Shown here: positions 28,637 through 61,965 of the stretch, piece after piece
Position numbering within the stretch: the stretch's first letter is position 1
How the letters are laid out: each line of letters opens with the position of its first letter
From: Escherichia coli
GTDB taxonomy: Bacteria; Pseudomonadota; Gammaproteobacteria; Enterobacterales; Enterobacteriaceae
Reading direction: 5' to 3' (one strand)
Length of the DNA stretch: 64,000 bases
Assembly: GCF_030013205.1 (NCBI RefSeq)
Contig: NZ_CP122648.1
Translations under genes and position numbers: made by a program
The notes under the pieces: model-generated
The model's database searches: none
Told to the model about the DNA's origin: nothing
What the model saw: the letters and a program-made list of their open reading frames with translations, nothing else

Positions 28637-28773
28637 CGTGTAATGGCTGCATGAAATAAACAATAAAATATAAATAACATTATCAGCCTGCTGACGGCTT
28701 GAAGAGAGTCACAGTATCTTGTGCAACATTATTGGAAAGCGTGAGGGGCGAGGTAGCGAAGCGGAAAAATGTT

Positions 28774-28879
28774 AAAAAAAAGCCCATCGTGGGAGATGGG
28801 CAAAGACTACACACAGCAATTCGTTGTTTCACTCAGGGGATTTCCATGCTTATAAATCAATATGTTGATTTATAACCGT
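28774..28879 (-). ncRNA. rprA: Small regulatory RNA RprA
   Basis: Reverse complement matches RprA (ACGGTTATAAATCAACATATTGATTTATAAGCATGG ... GCCCATCTCCCACGATGGGCTTTTTTTT), between ydiK and ydiL. Confidence 0.85.
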
Positions 28880-34317: not shown

Positions 34318-34510
34318 TTCTGACTTAATGCCGCAATTTCGCCAAATCGACCTGGATTAACCTCCGTCCAGGTTCGATAACCTTCTTAATACTGCTTATC
34401 TACCCGCCTGATATTGTTCAAAAATAATACTAATCGCAGTTTGTGTTAAAACGGCGGGTTAGCTTTATGAGATTATTCTTATCGCCCCTTCAAGAGCTAA
34501 GCCACTGAGA

Positions 34511-34583
34511 GTGCCGGAGATAAGCGCCGGATGGGGTAGAAACCCTTAAGCCTGTGTCGCACAGACTTAAGGGTTTTCTTATT
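34511..34583 (+). ncRNA. rydB: Candidate small RNA (position and structure consistent with RydB)
   Basis: Structured segment ending in CCCTTAAG...CTTAAGGG hairpin plus TTTTCTT, between ydiH and sufA; RydB sequence not recalled, ends approximate. Confidence 0.4.
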
Positions 34584-50512: not shown

Positions 50513-52123
50513 TTACATTTGATTAAACGAAAGACGCTGACGAGCACGGGATGCAGGCTTTACGACCGCCTGAGCCATCGCCTCACCAATTTCTGCACAT
50601 GCCGTAAGTCCCTGTACGAATGGCTGGTCGTGCATCAACCAGGGCAACGCGCCGAACGCTACGCGCCCACGAATTTCTTCGGGTTGCTGTAGCGTATAAT
50701 CTTCGCCAACATCAGGGATTTCATCCCCTGTTTTCTGTAATTGTTCGCGTAGTCCAGGGAAAGGAATATCTTTCACTTTAAGCGGACGCTGCCCGCGGGC
50801 ATCAATAAAAACGTCAAACGAGTAGCTGTTGTCTTCCGTTTTCAGGACGGTGCGCGACTCATTAATTTCCATTTCGTAGTCTTCACCGAGGGCGAGAATA
50901 TGAATGATTCCCGCTTCACGTAAGGCCAGCAGCCGACGAATAGACTCTGAAGGGATTGCCGCATAATTATCGATGAAAACCCGGGCAAGGCTTTTACTGA
51001 ACCGTTTATGGTCGAGTTCATTCAGATGAGGAACAATTTCCTGTACGGCTTCATGCAGGCGCAGAATGACATAACGCCAGGGAACAGTATGTTTTTCTCG
51101 TTTATTGCGTTCGACTTCCTGGAGATTTTTTTCTGCCCAGTCGAACGGGTCGCGTTGTTTGCGCTCGGCAAACCAGGCTTGAGCAAAGGAATCGACATTC
51201 AGGCTTTCTAAGGCTATGCGTTGGCTCCAGTCTGGATCAGCAAATTTGATTTCCTCTACTATCAATCTAAATACCCGATCCAAAAGGCCCTCTTCGCCTT
51301 TTTGAATCTCAGCATTTAATGCTTGATCAGTGACGATGTGTAAGGGCTCGTAGGGAATAGGGCAATAGAAATCGGCTTCGGGTAGAATACCTGTGCGCGA
51401 CATTAACGTAATATTTAGCTTTTCACTTGCGTTATCGCGGTGAAAAATGACGTGTTGTTTATCATCTTCAATGAACGAACCATGCTGAATAGCCACTGCC
51501 ATTGCCGCATCTAGTCCGCTCAAGGATGTTCCCATAATACCCACGTTACACGCATCGACCTTTGCTTCCATCAGGCCTGACCACGGGCTGGGAAAATACG
51601 TTCTGGTTGCTTCTTCTTCATCAGGCCAGACGTGACCCGTCGCGATCACTGCTAAATCAAACGTCTCGCTGGGTAAATCCTGATTTGTAGCGAGCATGAC
51701 GCCAGCATTTATAATTTGCAGATCGGTAACCTGGCATGATTCATAAACAGCCACTGCAAATTTTTGCTGTCGTGCCTGGTCTACTAATCGTAAAAATTGA
51801 TCGCGGAAATATTCGCCCAGCAGAATTCGCGGTAAAAACTGACGATCGTGCAAGGTTTCTTTTTTAACGCCATAACGCTGGAGATGGCTGGCTTCTTGCT
51901 TTTGTAGCCATTCGAGATACGTACAATAAATCGGCGGTATTTCAATACTGGCAATATTTGCCAGCATCATTTTTGAGTTTTCCTCATCACTGTATGGCAT
52001 CCCGACACCGGCTTCATCAGCCTGCTCGAAGATAGAAATAGAAAGTGGAGTTTGTTGCTGTAGAAGCGAGAATAAGGTGTAGATCCCCGTAGGCCCGGCA
52101 CCCACAATAGCAATTTTTTTCAT
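50513..52123 (-). CDS. ydhS: FAD/NAD(P)-binding protein of unknown function
   Basis: 536-aa ORF with N-terminal GAGPTG dinucleotide-binding motif. Confidence 0.9.
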   Translation of the reverse strand: MKKIAIVGAGPTGIYTLFSLLQQQTPLSISIFEQADEAGVGMPYSDEENSKMMLANIASIEIPPIYCTYLEWLQKQEASHLQRYGVKKETLHDRQFLPRILLGEYFRDQFLRLVDQARQQKFAVAVYESCQVTDLQIINAGVMLATNQDLPSETFDLAVIATGHVWPDEEEATRTYFPSPWSGLMEAKVDACNVGIMGTSLSGLDAAMAVAIQHGSFIEDDKQHVIFHRDNASEKLNITLMSRTGILPEADFYCPIPYEPLHIVTDQALNAEIQKGEEGLLDRVFRLIVEEIKFADPDWSQRIALESLNVDSFAQAWFAERKQRDPFDWAEKNLQEVERNKREKHTVPWRYVILRLHEAVQEIVPHLNELDHKRFSKSLARVFIDNYAAIPSESIRRLLALREAGIIHILALGEDYEMEINESRTVLKTEDNSYSFDVFIDARGQRPLKVKDIPFPGLREQLQKTGDEIPDVGEDYTLQQPEEIRGRVAFGALPWLMHDQPFVQGLTACAEIGEAMAQAVVKPASRARQRLSFNQM

Positions 52124-52248
52124 TGTTACTTACCTGTACGCATTCTTTCGAATTTAGTGTTATCAGATAAGTTTGGTTGAGATTTTTAGAATTTGAGAAA
52201 TTTCAGACAGGGATGAAAAGGGCGCTAACCGCCCTTGATTAAATTCTG

Positions 52249-52554
52249 TCAGGCGAGTTTTGCCTGACTGATTTGACTAAGTGGCTCATTGACATCGAAA
52301 ACTTTGGCGACAACTTCCTCAACGCCGAGATTTTTCAGTCGGGCAGTATGTTTTTCCAGATAGGCAAGGGCGTTTTTTTCATCAGTAAAAAGGTAGATCC
52401 CACCGGCTTCGTGGTTCTTTTCACTTTCTGTCCATACCTTCCACAGAAAACCAGGTTCCTGATTAATCGACTCAGCAAGCGGTTTAAGCTGCTCAGCCAT
52501 TGCGTCGCCAAATGGGCCATTGAAAGAAAAATGAAGTTGTAACAAAGTTGCCAT
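52249..52554 (-). CDS. ydhR: Putative monooxygenase YdhR
   Basis: 101-aa ORF matching K-12 YdhR. Confidence 0.88.
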
Positions 52555-52662
52555 AGCGATTCTCCTTCTGATAACGCATACGAAGACAGTGTAAATCTTT
52601 TAACGTATTGGATACAGAGAAGAAACAGAGGGAAAAAAGGAGAAGACCAGATTAAGAAAATC

Positions 52663-52739
52663 TGGTGCGTCCGAGTGGACTCGAACCACCGACCCCCACC
52701 ATGTCAAGGTGGTGCTCTAACCAACTGAGCTACGGACGC
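52663..52739 (-). tRNA. valW: tRNA-Val (anticodon GAC)
   Basis: Reverse complement reads GCGTCCGTAGCTCAGTTGGTTAGAGCACCACCTTGACATGGTGGGGGTCGGTGGTTCGAGTCCACTCGGACGCACCA; valV/valW label by synteny. Confidence 0.93.
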
Positions 52740-52743
52740 AGGA

Positions 52744-52820
52744 TGGTGCGTTCAATTGGACTCGAACCAACGACCCCCACCATGTCAAGGTGGTGCTCTA
52801 ACCAACTGAGCTATGAACGC
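52744..52820 (-). tRNA. valV: tRNA-Val (anticodon GAC)
   Basis: Reverse complement reads GCGTTCATAGCTCAGTTGGTTAGAGCACCACCTTGACATGGTGGGGGTCGTTGGTTCGAGTCCAATTGAACGCACCA; 4-nt spacer to neighbour. Confidence 0.93.
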
Positions 52821-53128
52821 AACGTTGTAGGTGACAACGGGGACGAATATTAGCGGCAGAGTGGGAAGGTGGCAAGAGGCAAAACGTAATTTTCTGCGCT
52901 ATTTCGACCGTTTGCAGAGCTTTTAAGCAAATTGGCTATATTTTGTTGATTTGCAAGGGCGATTTTTATTCAGGATCGCATTTACATCTGACACAACCCA
53001 ATAATCTGTGTATCAGAGTTTAAACAGAGTTGTTTGCCACCATCTCAAAATCTGTCGTGGATAAATCCTCCGTAGCCTTTACACTTAGGTAGCAATAAAG
53101 GCACACAGATGCAGCAAAGGAATAAATC

Positions 53129-54385
53129 ATGGGATCTGATGCGAAAAACTTGATGAGCGACGGGAACGTGCAAATTGTTAAGACCGGCGAGGTCATTGGC
53201 GCGACGCAACTTACTGAAGGTGAGTTAATTGTTGAAGCTGGCGCAAGAGCCGAAAATACCGTGGTCACGGGGGCTGGCTGGTTGAAAGTGGCAACCGGTG
53301 GGATCGCCAAATGTACACAGTACGGCAACAATGGCACGCTATCGGTCAGTGACGGTGCCATTGCCACAGATATTGTTCAGTCAGAGGGAGGCGCAATTAG
53401 TCTCTCTACGCTCGCTACGGTTAATGGCCGCCATCCCGAAGGTGAATTTAGCGTTGATCAGGGTTATGCCTGCGGTTTGTTGCTGGAAAATGGCGGTAAC
53501 CTGCGTGTACTGGAAGGCCATCGCGCGGAAAAAATCATTCTCGATCAAGAGGGCGGCCTGTTGGTCAATGGGACAACCTCAGCGGTCGTGGTAGATGAAG
53601 GTGGTGAATTGTTGGTGTATCCAGGTGGGGAAGCCAGCAATTGTGAGATTAATCAGGGCGGCGTTTTTATGCTGGCCGGGAAAGCCAGTGATACGTTGCT
53701 TGCTGGTGGTACCATGAATAATCTCGGTGGTGAAGACTCTGACACTATTGTTGAGAATGGAGCCATTTATCGTCTGGGGACGGATGGCCTTCAGCTCTAT
53801 AGTTCCGGTAAGACGCAAAACCTGTCCGTTAATGTGGGTGGTCGGGCTGAAGTGCATGCCGGTACGCTGGAAAACGCGGTAATACAAGGTGGGACAGTGA
53901 TCTTGTTGTCACCCACCAGCGCGGACGAAAATTTTGTCGTAGAGGAAGATCGCGCACCGGTTGAACTGACCGGGAGTGTTGCATTACTGGACGGCGCTTC
54001 AATGATTATTGGCTATGGCGCAGATCTGCAACAATCAACGATTACTGTACAGCAGGGCGGTGTGTTGATTCTCGACGGCAGTACGGTAAAAGGTGACAGT
54101 GTCACTTTCAGTGTTGGTAACATCAATCTGAATGGCGGAAAACTGTGGCTGATCACTGATGCGGCAACGCAGGTGCATCTGAAAGTGAAACGCCTGCGTG
54201 GAGAGGGAGCGATTTGCCTGCAAACCAGTGCGAAAGAAATTTCACCTGACTTCATCAATGTGAAAGGGGAAGTTACTGGTGATATACACGTTGAGATAAC
54301 AGATGCCAGTCGGCAAACTCTGTGTAACGCACTGAAACTACAGCCAGACGAAGACGGGATTGGCGCAACGCTCCAGCCTGCGTAA
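53129..54385 (+). CDS. ydhQ: Autotransporter passenger-like beta-helical repeat protein (no signal peptide or barrel evident)
   Basis: 418-aa ORF rich in Gly-containing beta-helix-type repeats. Confidence 0.9.
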   Translation: MGSDAKNLMSDGNVQIVKTGEVIGATQLTEGELIVEAGARAENTVVTGAGWLKVATGGIAKCTQYGNNGTLSVSDGAIATDIVQSEGGAISLSTLATVNGRHPEGEFSVDQGYACGLLLENGGNLRVLEGHRAEKIILDQEGGLLVNGTTSAVVVDEGGELLVYPGGEASNCEINQGGVFMLAGKASDTLLAGGTMNNLGGEDSDTIVENGAIYRLGTDGLQLYSSGKTQNLSVNVGGRAEVHAGTLENAVIQGGTVILLSPTSADENFVVEEDRAPVELTGSVALLDGASMIIGYGADLQQSTITVQQGGVLILDGSTVKGDSVTFSVGNINLNGGKLWLITDAATQVHLKVKRLRGEGAICLQTSAKEISPDFINVKGEVTGDIHVEITDASRQTLCNALKLQPDEDGIGATLQPA

Positions 54386-61412: not shown

Positions 61413-61710
61413 TCCATTTCACTCCAGACCCTAACTTCAGCTCCTGCAAAATCGCAAGGTAAACGTTTGCCTTTACACACCTTACGCACAACAAAAGTGT
61501 TGCGGTACGCCGGAAAAACGACACGGAGCGTCAGGAAGGGGTCAATGGCCAGTACGCAAATAGTGTAAGCGTGGAATTTTGGCCGATCTTGACGAAAAGG
61601 GGAAGTGGTAAAAACACTTATCATTATAAATGACGGGAGATTTTTTCATCACAGTGTGTAAAAATGCGTAATATCACTTTTTGTGTGGTAATAAAAAAGG
61701 AGAAAACTTG

Positions 61711-61800
61711 ATGAGCACCGACCTTAAATTTTCACTGGTAACAACGATTATCGTCCTCGGTTTGATCGTGGCCGTGGGTTTGACTGCCGCGCTGCACTGA
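61711..61800 (+). CDS. ynhF: Small membrane protein YnhF (29 aa)
   Basis: ATG at 61711 after GGAGAAAA RBS encodes MSTDLKFSLVTTIIVLGLIVAVGLTAALH; below ORF-track size cutoff. Confidence 0.7.
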   Translation: MSTDLKFSLVTTIIVLGLIVAVGLTAALH

Positions 61801-61965
61801 TTTCCTCTCGAGGGAGCGCGTTCTCCCTCGCATCTCCTTCCTGTTTGTTAGCAAAATGGCAAAAGTGTTTTCTCTTTTTGTTATTTTCATTTTTTTGTGA
61901 TTGCTGTCATGCTTTCGCCACTTTAATGAATATCGCGTAATGACGCGAAGAGGTGGAGATAAGGC

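What the first reader, a model, noticed from the sequence alone, without database searches (positions are those of the whole stretch)
52663..52820. Tandem tRNA-Val(GAC) genes separated by 4 nt, differing in acceptor and T-stems
Two 77-nt tRNA-Val genes sit head-to-tail with a 4-nt spacer. They share the anticodon arm but differ at several stem positions, so they are distinct isodecoders. tRNA loci are common integration sites, yet no integrase or repeat is associated here.
Basis: seen in the sequence. Interest (0 to 1): 0.15.

Follow-up and report, generated by a model that had tools for sequence, protein, structure and literature searches.

The report
E. coli valV-valW valine tRNA operon
These are the well-known paired valine tRNA genes valV and valW of Escherichia coli, an ordinary and already well-studied core-genome operon, not a mobile-element insertion site.

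Summary
Two 77-nt tRNA-Val(GAC) genes lie head to tail on the minus strand (52820..52744 and 52739..52663), separated by 4 nt (UCCU). They are 100% identical to valV (b1665) and valW (b1666) of E. coli K-12, including promoter, leader and spacer. The same 1-kb stretch is present in 5401 of 5426 complete E. coli genomes.

The six differences are three compensatory base-pair swaps: 5:68 and 7:66 in the acceptor stem, and 50:64 in the T stem. These are the classical Val2A/Val2B isodecoders. The valV-type then valW-type order recurs across many Enterobacteriaceae genera, and the valW sequence is identical in all 109 copies sampled.

Published work shows one dicistronic transcript that RNase P alone separates.

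There is no integrase, att-like repeat or island. The flanks are syntenic with K-12.

Two side observations:
- A hairpin that pairs the ACCA end of valW, followed by a U-rich tract, is conserved with covariation in several genera. It fits the published precursor of about +35 nt, although the literature calls termination Rho-dependent.
- An Rfam "HPnc0260" antisense match overlaps valW. It probably reflects the antisense-tRNA content of that model.

Verdict: already known, low interest.

The parts
52870..52875 (-). -35 hexamer TTGCCA of the valV valW promoter
   Evidence: Consensus scan. The sequence is identical to K-12. It is consistent with the promoter drawn in PMC2190699.
52847..52852 (-). 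-10 hexamer TAATAT with a 17-nt spacer, followed by a G+C-rich discriminator TCGTCC (52846..52841)
   Evidence: and the sequence. Reading the G+C-rich discriminator as a stable-RNA, stringently controlled promoter feature is inference from general knowledge.
52821..52840 (-). 5' leader. Transcription starts in the C run at about 52840/52839. A 6-bp leader hairpin is predicted at 52839..52823.
   Evidence: Primer extension in K-12 maps two starts at C residues 18 and 19 nt upstream of mature valV (PMC2190699). By my count the nearest C residues are 19-20 nt upstream. The leader hairpin comes from the fold.
52744..52820 (-). valV, tRNA-Val(GAC), the A-U-rich-stem isodecoder (U5-A68, A7-U66, U50-A64)
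   Evidence: 100% identical to K-12 b1665.
52740..52743 (-). 4-nt intergenic spacer UCCU
   Evidence: The same spacer is described in PMC2190699 and PMC4176162.
52663..52739 (-). valW, tRNA-Val(GAC), the G-C-rich-stem isodecoder (C5-G68, G7-C66, G50-C64)
   Evidence: 100% identical to K-12 b1666. The sequence is identical in 109 copies from many Enterobacterales genera.
52646..52666 (-). Hairpin ACCAGAUU-UUCUU-AAUCUGGU. Its 5' arm is the ACCA 3' end of valW.
   Evidence: Terminator-like scan. Folds. Conserved with compensatory changes in other genera.
52633..52645 (-). Pyrimidine/U-rich tract CUUCUCCUUUUUU after the hairpin, the likely 3' end region of the primary transcript
   Evidence: Sequence. 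The 60 nt downstream of valW hold 16 C and 6 G. The published full-length precursor VWT is about 35 nt longer than the species lacking the trailer.
52538..52701 (+). Rfam RF02194 (HPnc0260 antisense RNA) match, antisense to the ydhR start, the valW-ydhR spacer and the 3' 39 nt of valW. Probably not a gene.
   Evidence: 112 bits against a gathering score of 59. Model positions 117-156 are the reverse complement of a tRNA T arm and acceptor strand. The model gives similar hits in 10 of 13 other genera. There is no plus-strand promoter-like site.

Best explanation
The feature is the valV valW operon of Escherichia coli. It holds two tandem genes for tRNA-Val with anticodon GAC, the species known as Val2A and Val2B, which read GUC and GUU codons. 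A sigma-70 promoter (TTGCCA, 17 nt, TAATAT, then a G+C-rich discriminator) starts transcription about 19-20 nt upstream of valV. One dicistronic precursor is made. The 4-nt UCCU spacer offers no A/U-rich RNase E site, so RNase P alone separates the two tRNAs by cutting at each mature 5' end. 3'-to-5' exonucleases (PNPase and RNase II, then the tRNA-trimming exonucleases) remove the trailer of about 30-35 nt and the 4-nt spacer down to the encoded CCA. The two genes are ancient, separately conserved isodecoders. They differ only by three compensatory base pairs that leave the anticodon, the discriminator base and the loops unchanged. The locus is core genome and is not a site of island integration. 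Shown by sequence here: gene identity, structure, promoter match, synteny and conservation. Shown by published experiments on the identical K-12 sequence: transcription starts, the dicistronic transcript, RNase P dependence and exonucleolytic trailer removal. Inferred: equal decoding function of the two isodecoders, and selection keeping both.
For: - tRNA calls come from two independent programs.
- The sequence is 100% identical to K-12 valV/valW across promoter, leader, genes and spacer.
- All six differences fall into three Watson-Crick pairs.
- The promoter-like site sits where primer extension places the starts (PMC2190699).
- RNase P-only separation, the UCCU spacer and lack of ydhR co-transcription are published (PMC2190699; PMC4176162; PMC7049720).
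- Val2A and Val2B are recognised as separate RNA species with the same anticodon (PMC7568582; PMC6895100).
- 5401 of 5426 E. coli genomes hold the same 1-kb stretch at 95% identity or more.
- The valV-type then valW-type order is found in 45 arrays from many Enterobacteriaceae genera, with spacers of 3-17 nt. The valW sequence is identical in 109 of 109 copies and the E. coli valV sequence in 52 copies.
Against: Nothing contradicts the identification. Three caveats apply. Processing was not tested in this strain and is only inferred from sequence identity to K-12. Which gene corresponds to Val2A and which to Val2B was not verified here.
Confidence: 0.97

Rival explanations
1. The pair is a recent tandem duplication whose copies are drifting apart, so one copy may be decaying rather than being a maintained isodecoder.
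For: The copies are 92% identical and only 4 nt apart. In one E. coli strain, CEC96047, valV has been lost next to an IS3-family element while valW remains, so valV can be dispensed with.
Against: All six differences are compensatory and keep 7/7 acceptor pairs in both copies. Both exact sequences, in the same order, recur in many genera of Enterobacteriaceae. Both RNAs are known expressed species.
Confidence: 0.02
2. The tRNA pair marks a genomic-island or prophage integration site, current or former.
For: tRNA 3' ends are common integrase targets (general knowledge). A short inverted copy of the tRNA 3' end (TGGT, or TGGTGC in other genera) lies 13 nt downstream of valW.
Against: The flanking genes are the same as in K-12, with ydhR 108 nt downstream. 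No second copy of the tRNA 3' end exists in the 64-kb window at up to 3 mismatches. No flanking direct repeats were found. The locus is contiguous in 5401 of 5426 genomes. The one disrupted example examined is an IS insertion with deletion, not an integrase-borne island. The downstream TGGT is inverted and not direct, and it covaries as an RNA stem.
Confidence: 0.01
3. The plus strand encodes an antisense small RNA of Rfam family HPnc0260, running from inside the ydhR start through the spacer into the 3' half of valW, which could act on ydhR or on the tRNA precursor.
For: The full-length match to RF02194 scores 112 bits, well above the gathering score of 59. Matches in the equivalent place occur in 10 of 13 other genera tested.
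Against: The last 40 model positions are simply the reverse complement of a tRNA T arm and acceptor strand. They alone give 36.6 bits on valV as well. In other genera the scores sit just above threshold (61-82 bits), although the spacers differ in sequence and length. This suggests the model rewards an antisense tRNA-Val plus an A-rich flank. No plus-strand promoter-like site exists in 52200-53400. The papers that mention the family outside Helicobacter only list it as an automatic Rfam annotation.
Confidence: 0.1

Closest known systems
valV (b1665) and valW (b1666) of Escherichia coli K-12 MG1655, tRNA-Val(GAC) species Val2A/Val2B
   Same: The sequence is 100% identical over both genes, the UCCU spacer, the leader and the promoter. 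The neighbours are the same: ydhQ upstream and divergent, ydhR downstream.
   Different: There are only strain-level differences outside the genes: one extra T in the downstream T tract, plus four substitutions and one 1-nt indel in the ydhQ-valV intergenic region.
RNase P-dependent polycistronic tRNA operons of E. coli (valV valW, leuQ leuP leuV, secG leuU, valU and lysT operons; Mohanty and Kushner 2007, Agrawal et al. 2014)
   Same: This is the founding example of the class. It has a very short pyrimidine spacer that is not A/U-rich, and separation is by RNase P at the mature 5' ends.
   Different: The valU and lysT operons end in clear Rho-independent terminators that RNase P removes first. 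For valV valW the literature reports no recognisable terminator structure and exonucleolytic trailer removal.
Tandem tRNA-Val(GAC) arrays of other Gammaproteobacteria (Citrobacter, Enterobacter, Klebsiella, Serratia, Pantoea, Aeromonas and others)
   Same: The anticodon and 77-nt architecture are the same. In Enterobacteriaceae the two isodecoders appear in the same order.
   Different: Spacer length varies from 2 to 53 nt. Serratia, Rahnella, Proteus and Xenorhabdus carry two or three identical copies. Pantoea, Erwinia and Tatumella have a different upstream isodecoder and often a third copy. Aeromonas has 3-5 copies and G+C-rich intrinsic terminators.

Membership tests
Bacterial tRNA (Rfam RF00005) | Cloverleaf-compatible sequence scoring above the family gathering score, with a 7-nt anticodon loop | tested here: met
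   70.1 and 69.6 bits against a gathering score of 29. ARAGORN calls both genes. All 7 acceptor pairs are intact in both.
tRNA-Val(GAC), orthologues of E. coli valV and valW | Anticodon GAC and sequence identity to K-12 b1665/b1666 in the same genomic context | tested here: met
   Anticodon gac. 100% identity to K-12 valV and valW and the same neighbours.
tRNA-Val(GAC), orthologues of E. coli valV and valW | The nucleotides I recall as the main valyl-tRNA synthetase identity elements (A35, C36, discriminator A73) are present in both copies | tested here: met
   Both sequences read ..UUGACAU.. in the anticodon loop and ..GCACCA at the 3' end. That these are the identity elements is from memory and was not checked here. 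Charging itself cannot be tested with these tools, though the literature reports aminoacylated Val2.
RNase P-dependent, RNase E-independent polycistronic tRNA operon | Short intergenic spacer without an A/U-rich RNase E site | tested here: met
   The spacer is UCCU, identical to that described in PMC2190699.
RNase P-dependent, RNase E-independent polycistronic tRNA operon | The dicistronic precursor accumulates when RNase P is inactivated and not when RNase E is | not testable with these tools
   Shown experimentally for the identical K-12 sequence (PMC2190699, PMC7049720).
tRNA-associated genomic island or prophage integration site | Integrase gene next to the tRNA 3' end, and a direct repeat of the tRNA 3' end at the far boundary | tested here: not met
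   ydhR follows valW after 108 nt, as in K-12. There is no further copy of the 25-nt 3' end at up to 3 mismatches in 64 kb. No flanking repeats were found.
Rho-independent (intrinsic) terminator | G+C-rich stem-loop immediately followed by a run of U | tested here: inconclusive
   The stem has 8 bp, of which only 3 are G-C, at -8.9 kcal/mol. The U run is interrupted (CUUCUCCUUUUUU). The scan's hit count is no higher than in shuffles: 2 found against 1.3 expected. However, the stem covaries across genera and matches the published precursor of about +35 nt.
Rfam RF02194 HPnc0260 antisense RNA | Score above gathering threshold | tested here: met
   112 bits against 59.
Rfam RF02194 HPnc0260 antisense RNA | An actual antisense transcript with its own promoter | tested here: inconclusive
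   No plus-strand promoter-like site lies in 52200-53400. Transcription cannot be tested here.

The most novel reading that the evidence does not exclude
The valV valW operon may not end at an unstructured Rho-dependent site, as published. It may instead end at a conserved, atypical hairpin whose 5' arm is the ACCA end of valW itself (52666..52646), followed by a U-rich tract. In that reading the hairpin would stack on the acceptor stem, hide the CCA, stop or pause transcription about 30 nt past the tRNA, and have to be removed before RNase P and the synthetase can use the 3' end. A stem of this kind that starts exactly at ACCA is kept, with compensatory changes, in Escherichia, Citrobacter, Enterobacter, Lelliottia, Kluyvera, Pseudescherichia, Trabulsiella and Silvania.
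Probability: 0.4. Interest if true: 0.25.

Novelty: already known. Interest (0 to 1): 0.07.

Why it matters
It matters little as a discovery. valV and valW have been named, mapped and biochemically studied for decades, and they are the textbook example of an RNase P-only polycistronic tRNA operon. This check removes a candidate from the list: there is no island, integrase or unusual element here. It also records three modest points. The two isodecoders are kept unchanged and in the same order across many enterobacterial genera. A CCA-pairing hairpin downstream of valW covaries and may refine the published view of how the operon terminates. The Rfam HPnc0260 model fires on the antisense strand of tRNA-Val loci in many genera, which annotators should treat with caution.

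Tried and rejected
- **Integration site:** I searched the window for further copies of the tRNA 3' end and for direct or inverted repeats within 18 kb, compared gene order with K-12 and with a strain 100% identical over the 1-kb query, and surveyed 5426 E. coli genomes. No island was found. The weakest-matching genome had an IS3 insertion with deletion of valV.
- **Recent duplication or pseudogene:** rejected by cross-genus conservation.
- **Antisense RNA gene (HPnc0260):** I examined the alignment, other genera and the literature. It is judged most likely a property of the model, but it is not excluded.
- **Sub-threshold Rfam hits (Plastid-ycf2, YrlA, ceN61):** dismissed. All score below half of their gathering scores. 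The first two overlie the tRNA genes, and I take them to be tRNA cross-matches.
- **Literature on Rho or bicyclomycin at valW:** nothing was found beyond the 2007 paper.
- **The remaining roughly 24 E. coli genomes with under 80% coverage:** the tool lists only selected rows, so I could not enumerate them and saw only one.

Full report
**Observation**

ARAGORN reports exactly two tRNA genes in the 64-kb window. Both are tRNA-Val with anticodon GAC and both lie on the minus strand, at 52663-52739 and 52744-52820. Rfam's tRNA model scores them 69.6 and 70.1 bits against a gathering score of 29.

Each gene is 77 nt with an encoded CCA. The four bases between them (52740-52743) read UCCU on the coding strand.

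**The differences between the copies**

The pairwise alignment shows six differences, at linear positions 5, 7, 51, 65, 67 and 69. Allowing for U20a, these are Sprinzl positions 5, 7, 50, 64, 66 and 68. They form three base pairs, each changed on both sides.

| Pair | Stem | Upstream copy | Downstream copy |
|---|---|---|---|
| 5:68 | acceptor | U-A | C-G |
| 7:66 | acceptor | A-U | G-C |
| 50:64 | T | U-A | G-C |

Everything else is identical: the D arm, anticodon arm, variable loop, T loop, discriminator A73 and CCA. Both copies keep all seven acceptor pairs.

**Identity**

A 1-kb query around the pair matches 5425 of 5426 complete E. coli genomes. In 5401 of them it matches as one contiguous stretch at 95% identity or more, and the features underneath are annotated ydhR, two tRNA-Val genes and ydhQ. 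The 100% matches listed are all pig isolates, several named ETEC and two O139:H1.

In K-12 MG1655 the two genes are valV (b1665) and valW (b1666). They sit between ydhQ, which is divergent, and ydhR. An alignment of about 600 nt shows the window to be identical to K-12 from 140 nt upstream of valV through both genes and the spacer, to 25 nt past valW. The nearest differences are one substitution 141 nt upstream of valV and one extra T in the downstream T tract. Further upstream, in the ydhQ-valV intergenic region, there are three more substitutions and one 1-nt indel. The window's ORFs reproduce the K-12 order ribC, mdtK, ydhQ | valV valW ydhR ydhS | ydhT ydhU.

**How it works**

A sigma-70-like site lies upstream of valV: TTGCCA (52875..52870), a 17-nt spacer, then TAATAT (52852..52847). 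It is followed by the G+C-rich stretch TCGTCC and a run of C.

Mohanty and Kushner mapped two transcription starts at C residues by primer extension, which they number 18 and 19 nt upstream of mature valV. By my count the nearest C residues are 19 and 20 nt upstream, at 52839 and 52840 (PMC2190699; sequence).

The same paper makes four further points:
- The 4-nt UCCU spacer has no A/U-rich RNase E site.
- The dicistronic precursor accumulates only when RNase P is inactivated.
- ydhR is not co-transcribed.
- The 3' trailer is removed by PNPase and RNase II.

Later papers confirm that all seven valine tRNAs depend on RNase P for separation (PMC4176162). They also show that mature tRNA from valV valW falls to about 10% of the wild-type level without RNase P (PMC7049720).

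The two RNAs are known as separate species, Val2A and Val2B, with the same anticodon (PMC7568582). Both carry acp3U47 (PMC6895100). These experimental points apply here by sequence identity. They were not tested on this strain.

**Conservation beyond E. coli**

One scan of the species-representative genome collection looked for two Val(GAC) genes 0-30 nt apart.

The arrays were classified by the three variable pairs.

| Pattern | Where found |
|---|---|
| valV-type then valW-type, spacer 3-17 nt (45 arrays) | Escherichia, Citrobacter, Enterobacter, Lelliottia, Kosakonia, Cedecea, Mangrovibacter, Siccibacter, Shimwellia, Phytobacter, Silvania, Superficieibacter, Pseudescherichia, Pseudenterobacter |
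| V, V, W | Klebsiella oxytoca, Trabulsiella, Pluralibacter |
| Two or three copies identical or nearly so (valW-type in Serratia marcescens, Rahnella and Xenorhabdus) | Serratia, Rahnella, Proteus, Morganella, Xenorhabdus |
| Different upstream isodecoder, often a third copy | Pantoea, Erwinia, Tatumella |
| 3-5 copies, the first with the same U5-A68, A7-U66, U50-A64 pairs | Aeromonas |

The valW sequence is identical in all 109 copies found. The exact E. coli valV sequence occurs in 52 copies. The pair is therefore an old, separately conserved pair of isodecoders. It is not a recent duplicate that is drifting.

**Integration-site question**

No evidence supports an integration site:
- The 25-nt 3' end of valW occurs only at the two genes, allowing up to 3 mismatches in 64 kb.
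- The only substantial repeat within 18 kb is the tRNA pair itself.
- Synteny with K-12 is unbroken.

The weakest of the 5425 matches is strain CEC96047. It has an IS3-family element inserted just after the -10 box, and valV and its leader are deleted up to the last three bases of valV. valW is intact. That is IS-mediated damage and not an integrase-borne island. It does show that valV can be lost.

**A side observation: the CCA hairpin**

The terminator-like scan flagged a hairpin at 52666..52646, ACCAGAUU-UUCUU-AAUCUGGU. Its 5' arm is the ACCA end of valW, and it is followed by CUUCUCCUUUUUU. The scan as a whole found no more hits than shuffled sequence would give (2 against 1.3), so the hit alone means little.

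Three further results make it more than a chance hit:
- **Folding:** the hairpin folds at -8.9 kcal/mol. In folds of valW plus trailer and of the whole predicted precursor, it coexists with both cloverleaves and abuts the valW acceptor stem.
- **Recurrence:** an uninterrupted stem of 8-11 bp starting exactly at ACCA is found downstream of the last Val(GAC) gene in 22 of about 105 arrays. For 21 of these none of 500 shuffles reached the observed stem length, and for the other one shuffle did. They come from Escherichia, Citrobacter, Enterobacter, Lelliottia, Kluyvera, Pseudescherichia, Trabulsiella and Silvania. Interrupted versions occur in Klebsiella and some Citrobacter.
- **Covariation:** the inner stem differs between genera but stays complementary. 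RNAalifold gives a 10-bp consensus stem in which three pairs have changes on both sides. Pair counting gives 95.9% of cells paired against 32-42% when the partner is slid. It also gives 12 doubly changed cells against 4.3 in shuffles, with 0 of 500 shuffles reaching the observed value.

The sequences in that alignment were chosen because they have the hairpin, and they are related. The percentage paired is therefore inflated. The compensatory changes are the informative part.

The 2007 paper states that no recognisable Rho-independent terminator exists and infers Rho-dependent termination. It also reports that the full-length precursor is only about 35 nt longer than the trimmed one. That places its 3' end at or just after this U tract.

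The U tract is not well kept in all genera. After the stem Enterobacter has GCAAAUUUCC, for example. The stem is A/U-rich, and the region is C-rich and G-poor (16 C and 6 G in 60 nt), as expected for a Rho site. I therefore leave the hairpin's role open. It could be a weak intrinsic terminator, a pause element or a 3'-processing element.

**A second side observation: the HPnc0260 match**

Rfam family RF02194, the HPnc0260 antisense RNA first described in Helicobacter, matches the plus strand at 52538-52701 with 112 bits against a gathering score of 59.

The last 40 model positions are the reverse complement of a tRNA T arm and acceptor strand. They alone give 36.6 bits on valV as well. The same model hits the strand antisense to the last Val(GAC) gene plus its trailer in 10 of 13 other genera. 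Scores there run from 61 to 103 bits, although those trailers differ in sequence and length.

No plus-strand promoter-like site lies within 52200-53400. The two papers read that mention the family outside Helicobacter only list it as an automatic annotation. I consider it most likely a property of the model. Only strand-specific transcript mapping can settle it.

**Verdict**

Novelty is "already known" and interest is low. The only loose thread worth an experiment is the covarying CCA hairpin set against the published Rho-dependent description.

Noticed in passing
window 52633-52666 (minus strand): A hairpin whose 5' arm is the ACCA end of valW is followed by a U-rich tract. It is conserved with compensatory changes in Escherichia, Citrobacter, Enterobacter, Kluyvera and other genera. 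The literature says there is no terminator structure here, yet it reports a precursor only about 35 nt longer than the CCA end.
   Followed up: partly
window 52538-52701 (plus strand): An Rfam RF02194 HPnc0260 antisense-RNA match scores 112 bits against a gathering score of 59. It overlaps the ydhR start, the spacer and the 3' half of valW. The same model hits the equivalent antisense position in 10 of 13 other genera at 61-103 bits. It is probably driven by the antisense-tRNA part of the model.
   Followed up: partly
L003 12440-13760 (E. coli CEC96047, NZ_AP026104.1): An IS3-family element is inserted right after the valV -10 box. valV and its leader are deleted up to the last 3 nt of valV, and valW is left intact. 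This is a natural valV-less strain.
   Followed up: yes
window 52823-52839 (minus strand): [quoted passage not shown]
   Followed up: no
window 52633-52638: The T tract after the hairpin is T6 here and T5 in K-12 MG1655. This is the only difference from K-12 between the promoter and ydhR.
   Followed up: no
window 61413-61803 (+), 34484-34544 (+), 28772-28879 (-): Rfam matches above gathering score to the enterobacterial small RNAs STnc550 (396 bits), rydB (81.6 bits) and RprA (118.5 bits).
   Followed up: no
window 50513-52123 (minus strand): The ydhS ORF is intact here at 536 aa. RefSeq annotates ydhS as frameshifted in strain K_EC180, whose 1-kb valVW region is 100% identical to the window. 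K-12 ydhS is 1605 nt.
   Followed up: no
L010, L030, L034, L038, L039, L048, L123 (Aeromonas species): Aeromonas carries arrays of 3-5 Val(GAC) genes that alternate two or three isodecoder types. They end in classical G+C-rich intrinsic terminators (AAGCCCGC...GCGGGCUUUU), unlike the enterobacterial trailers.
   Followed up: no
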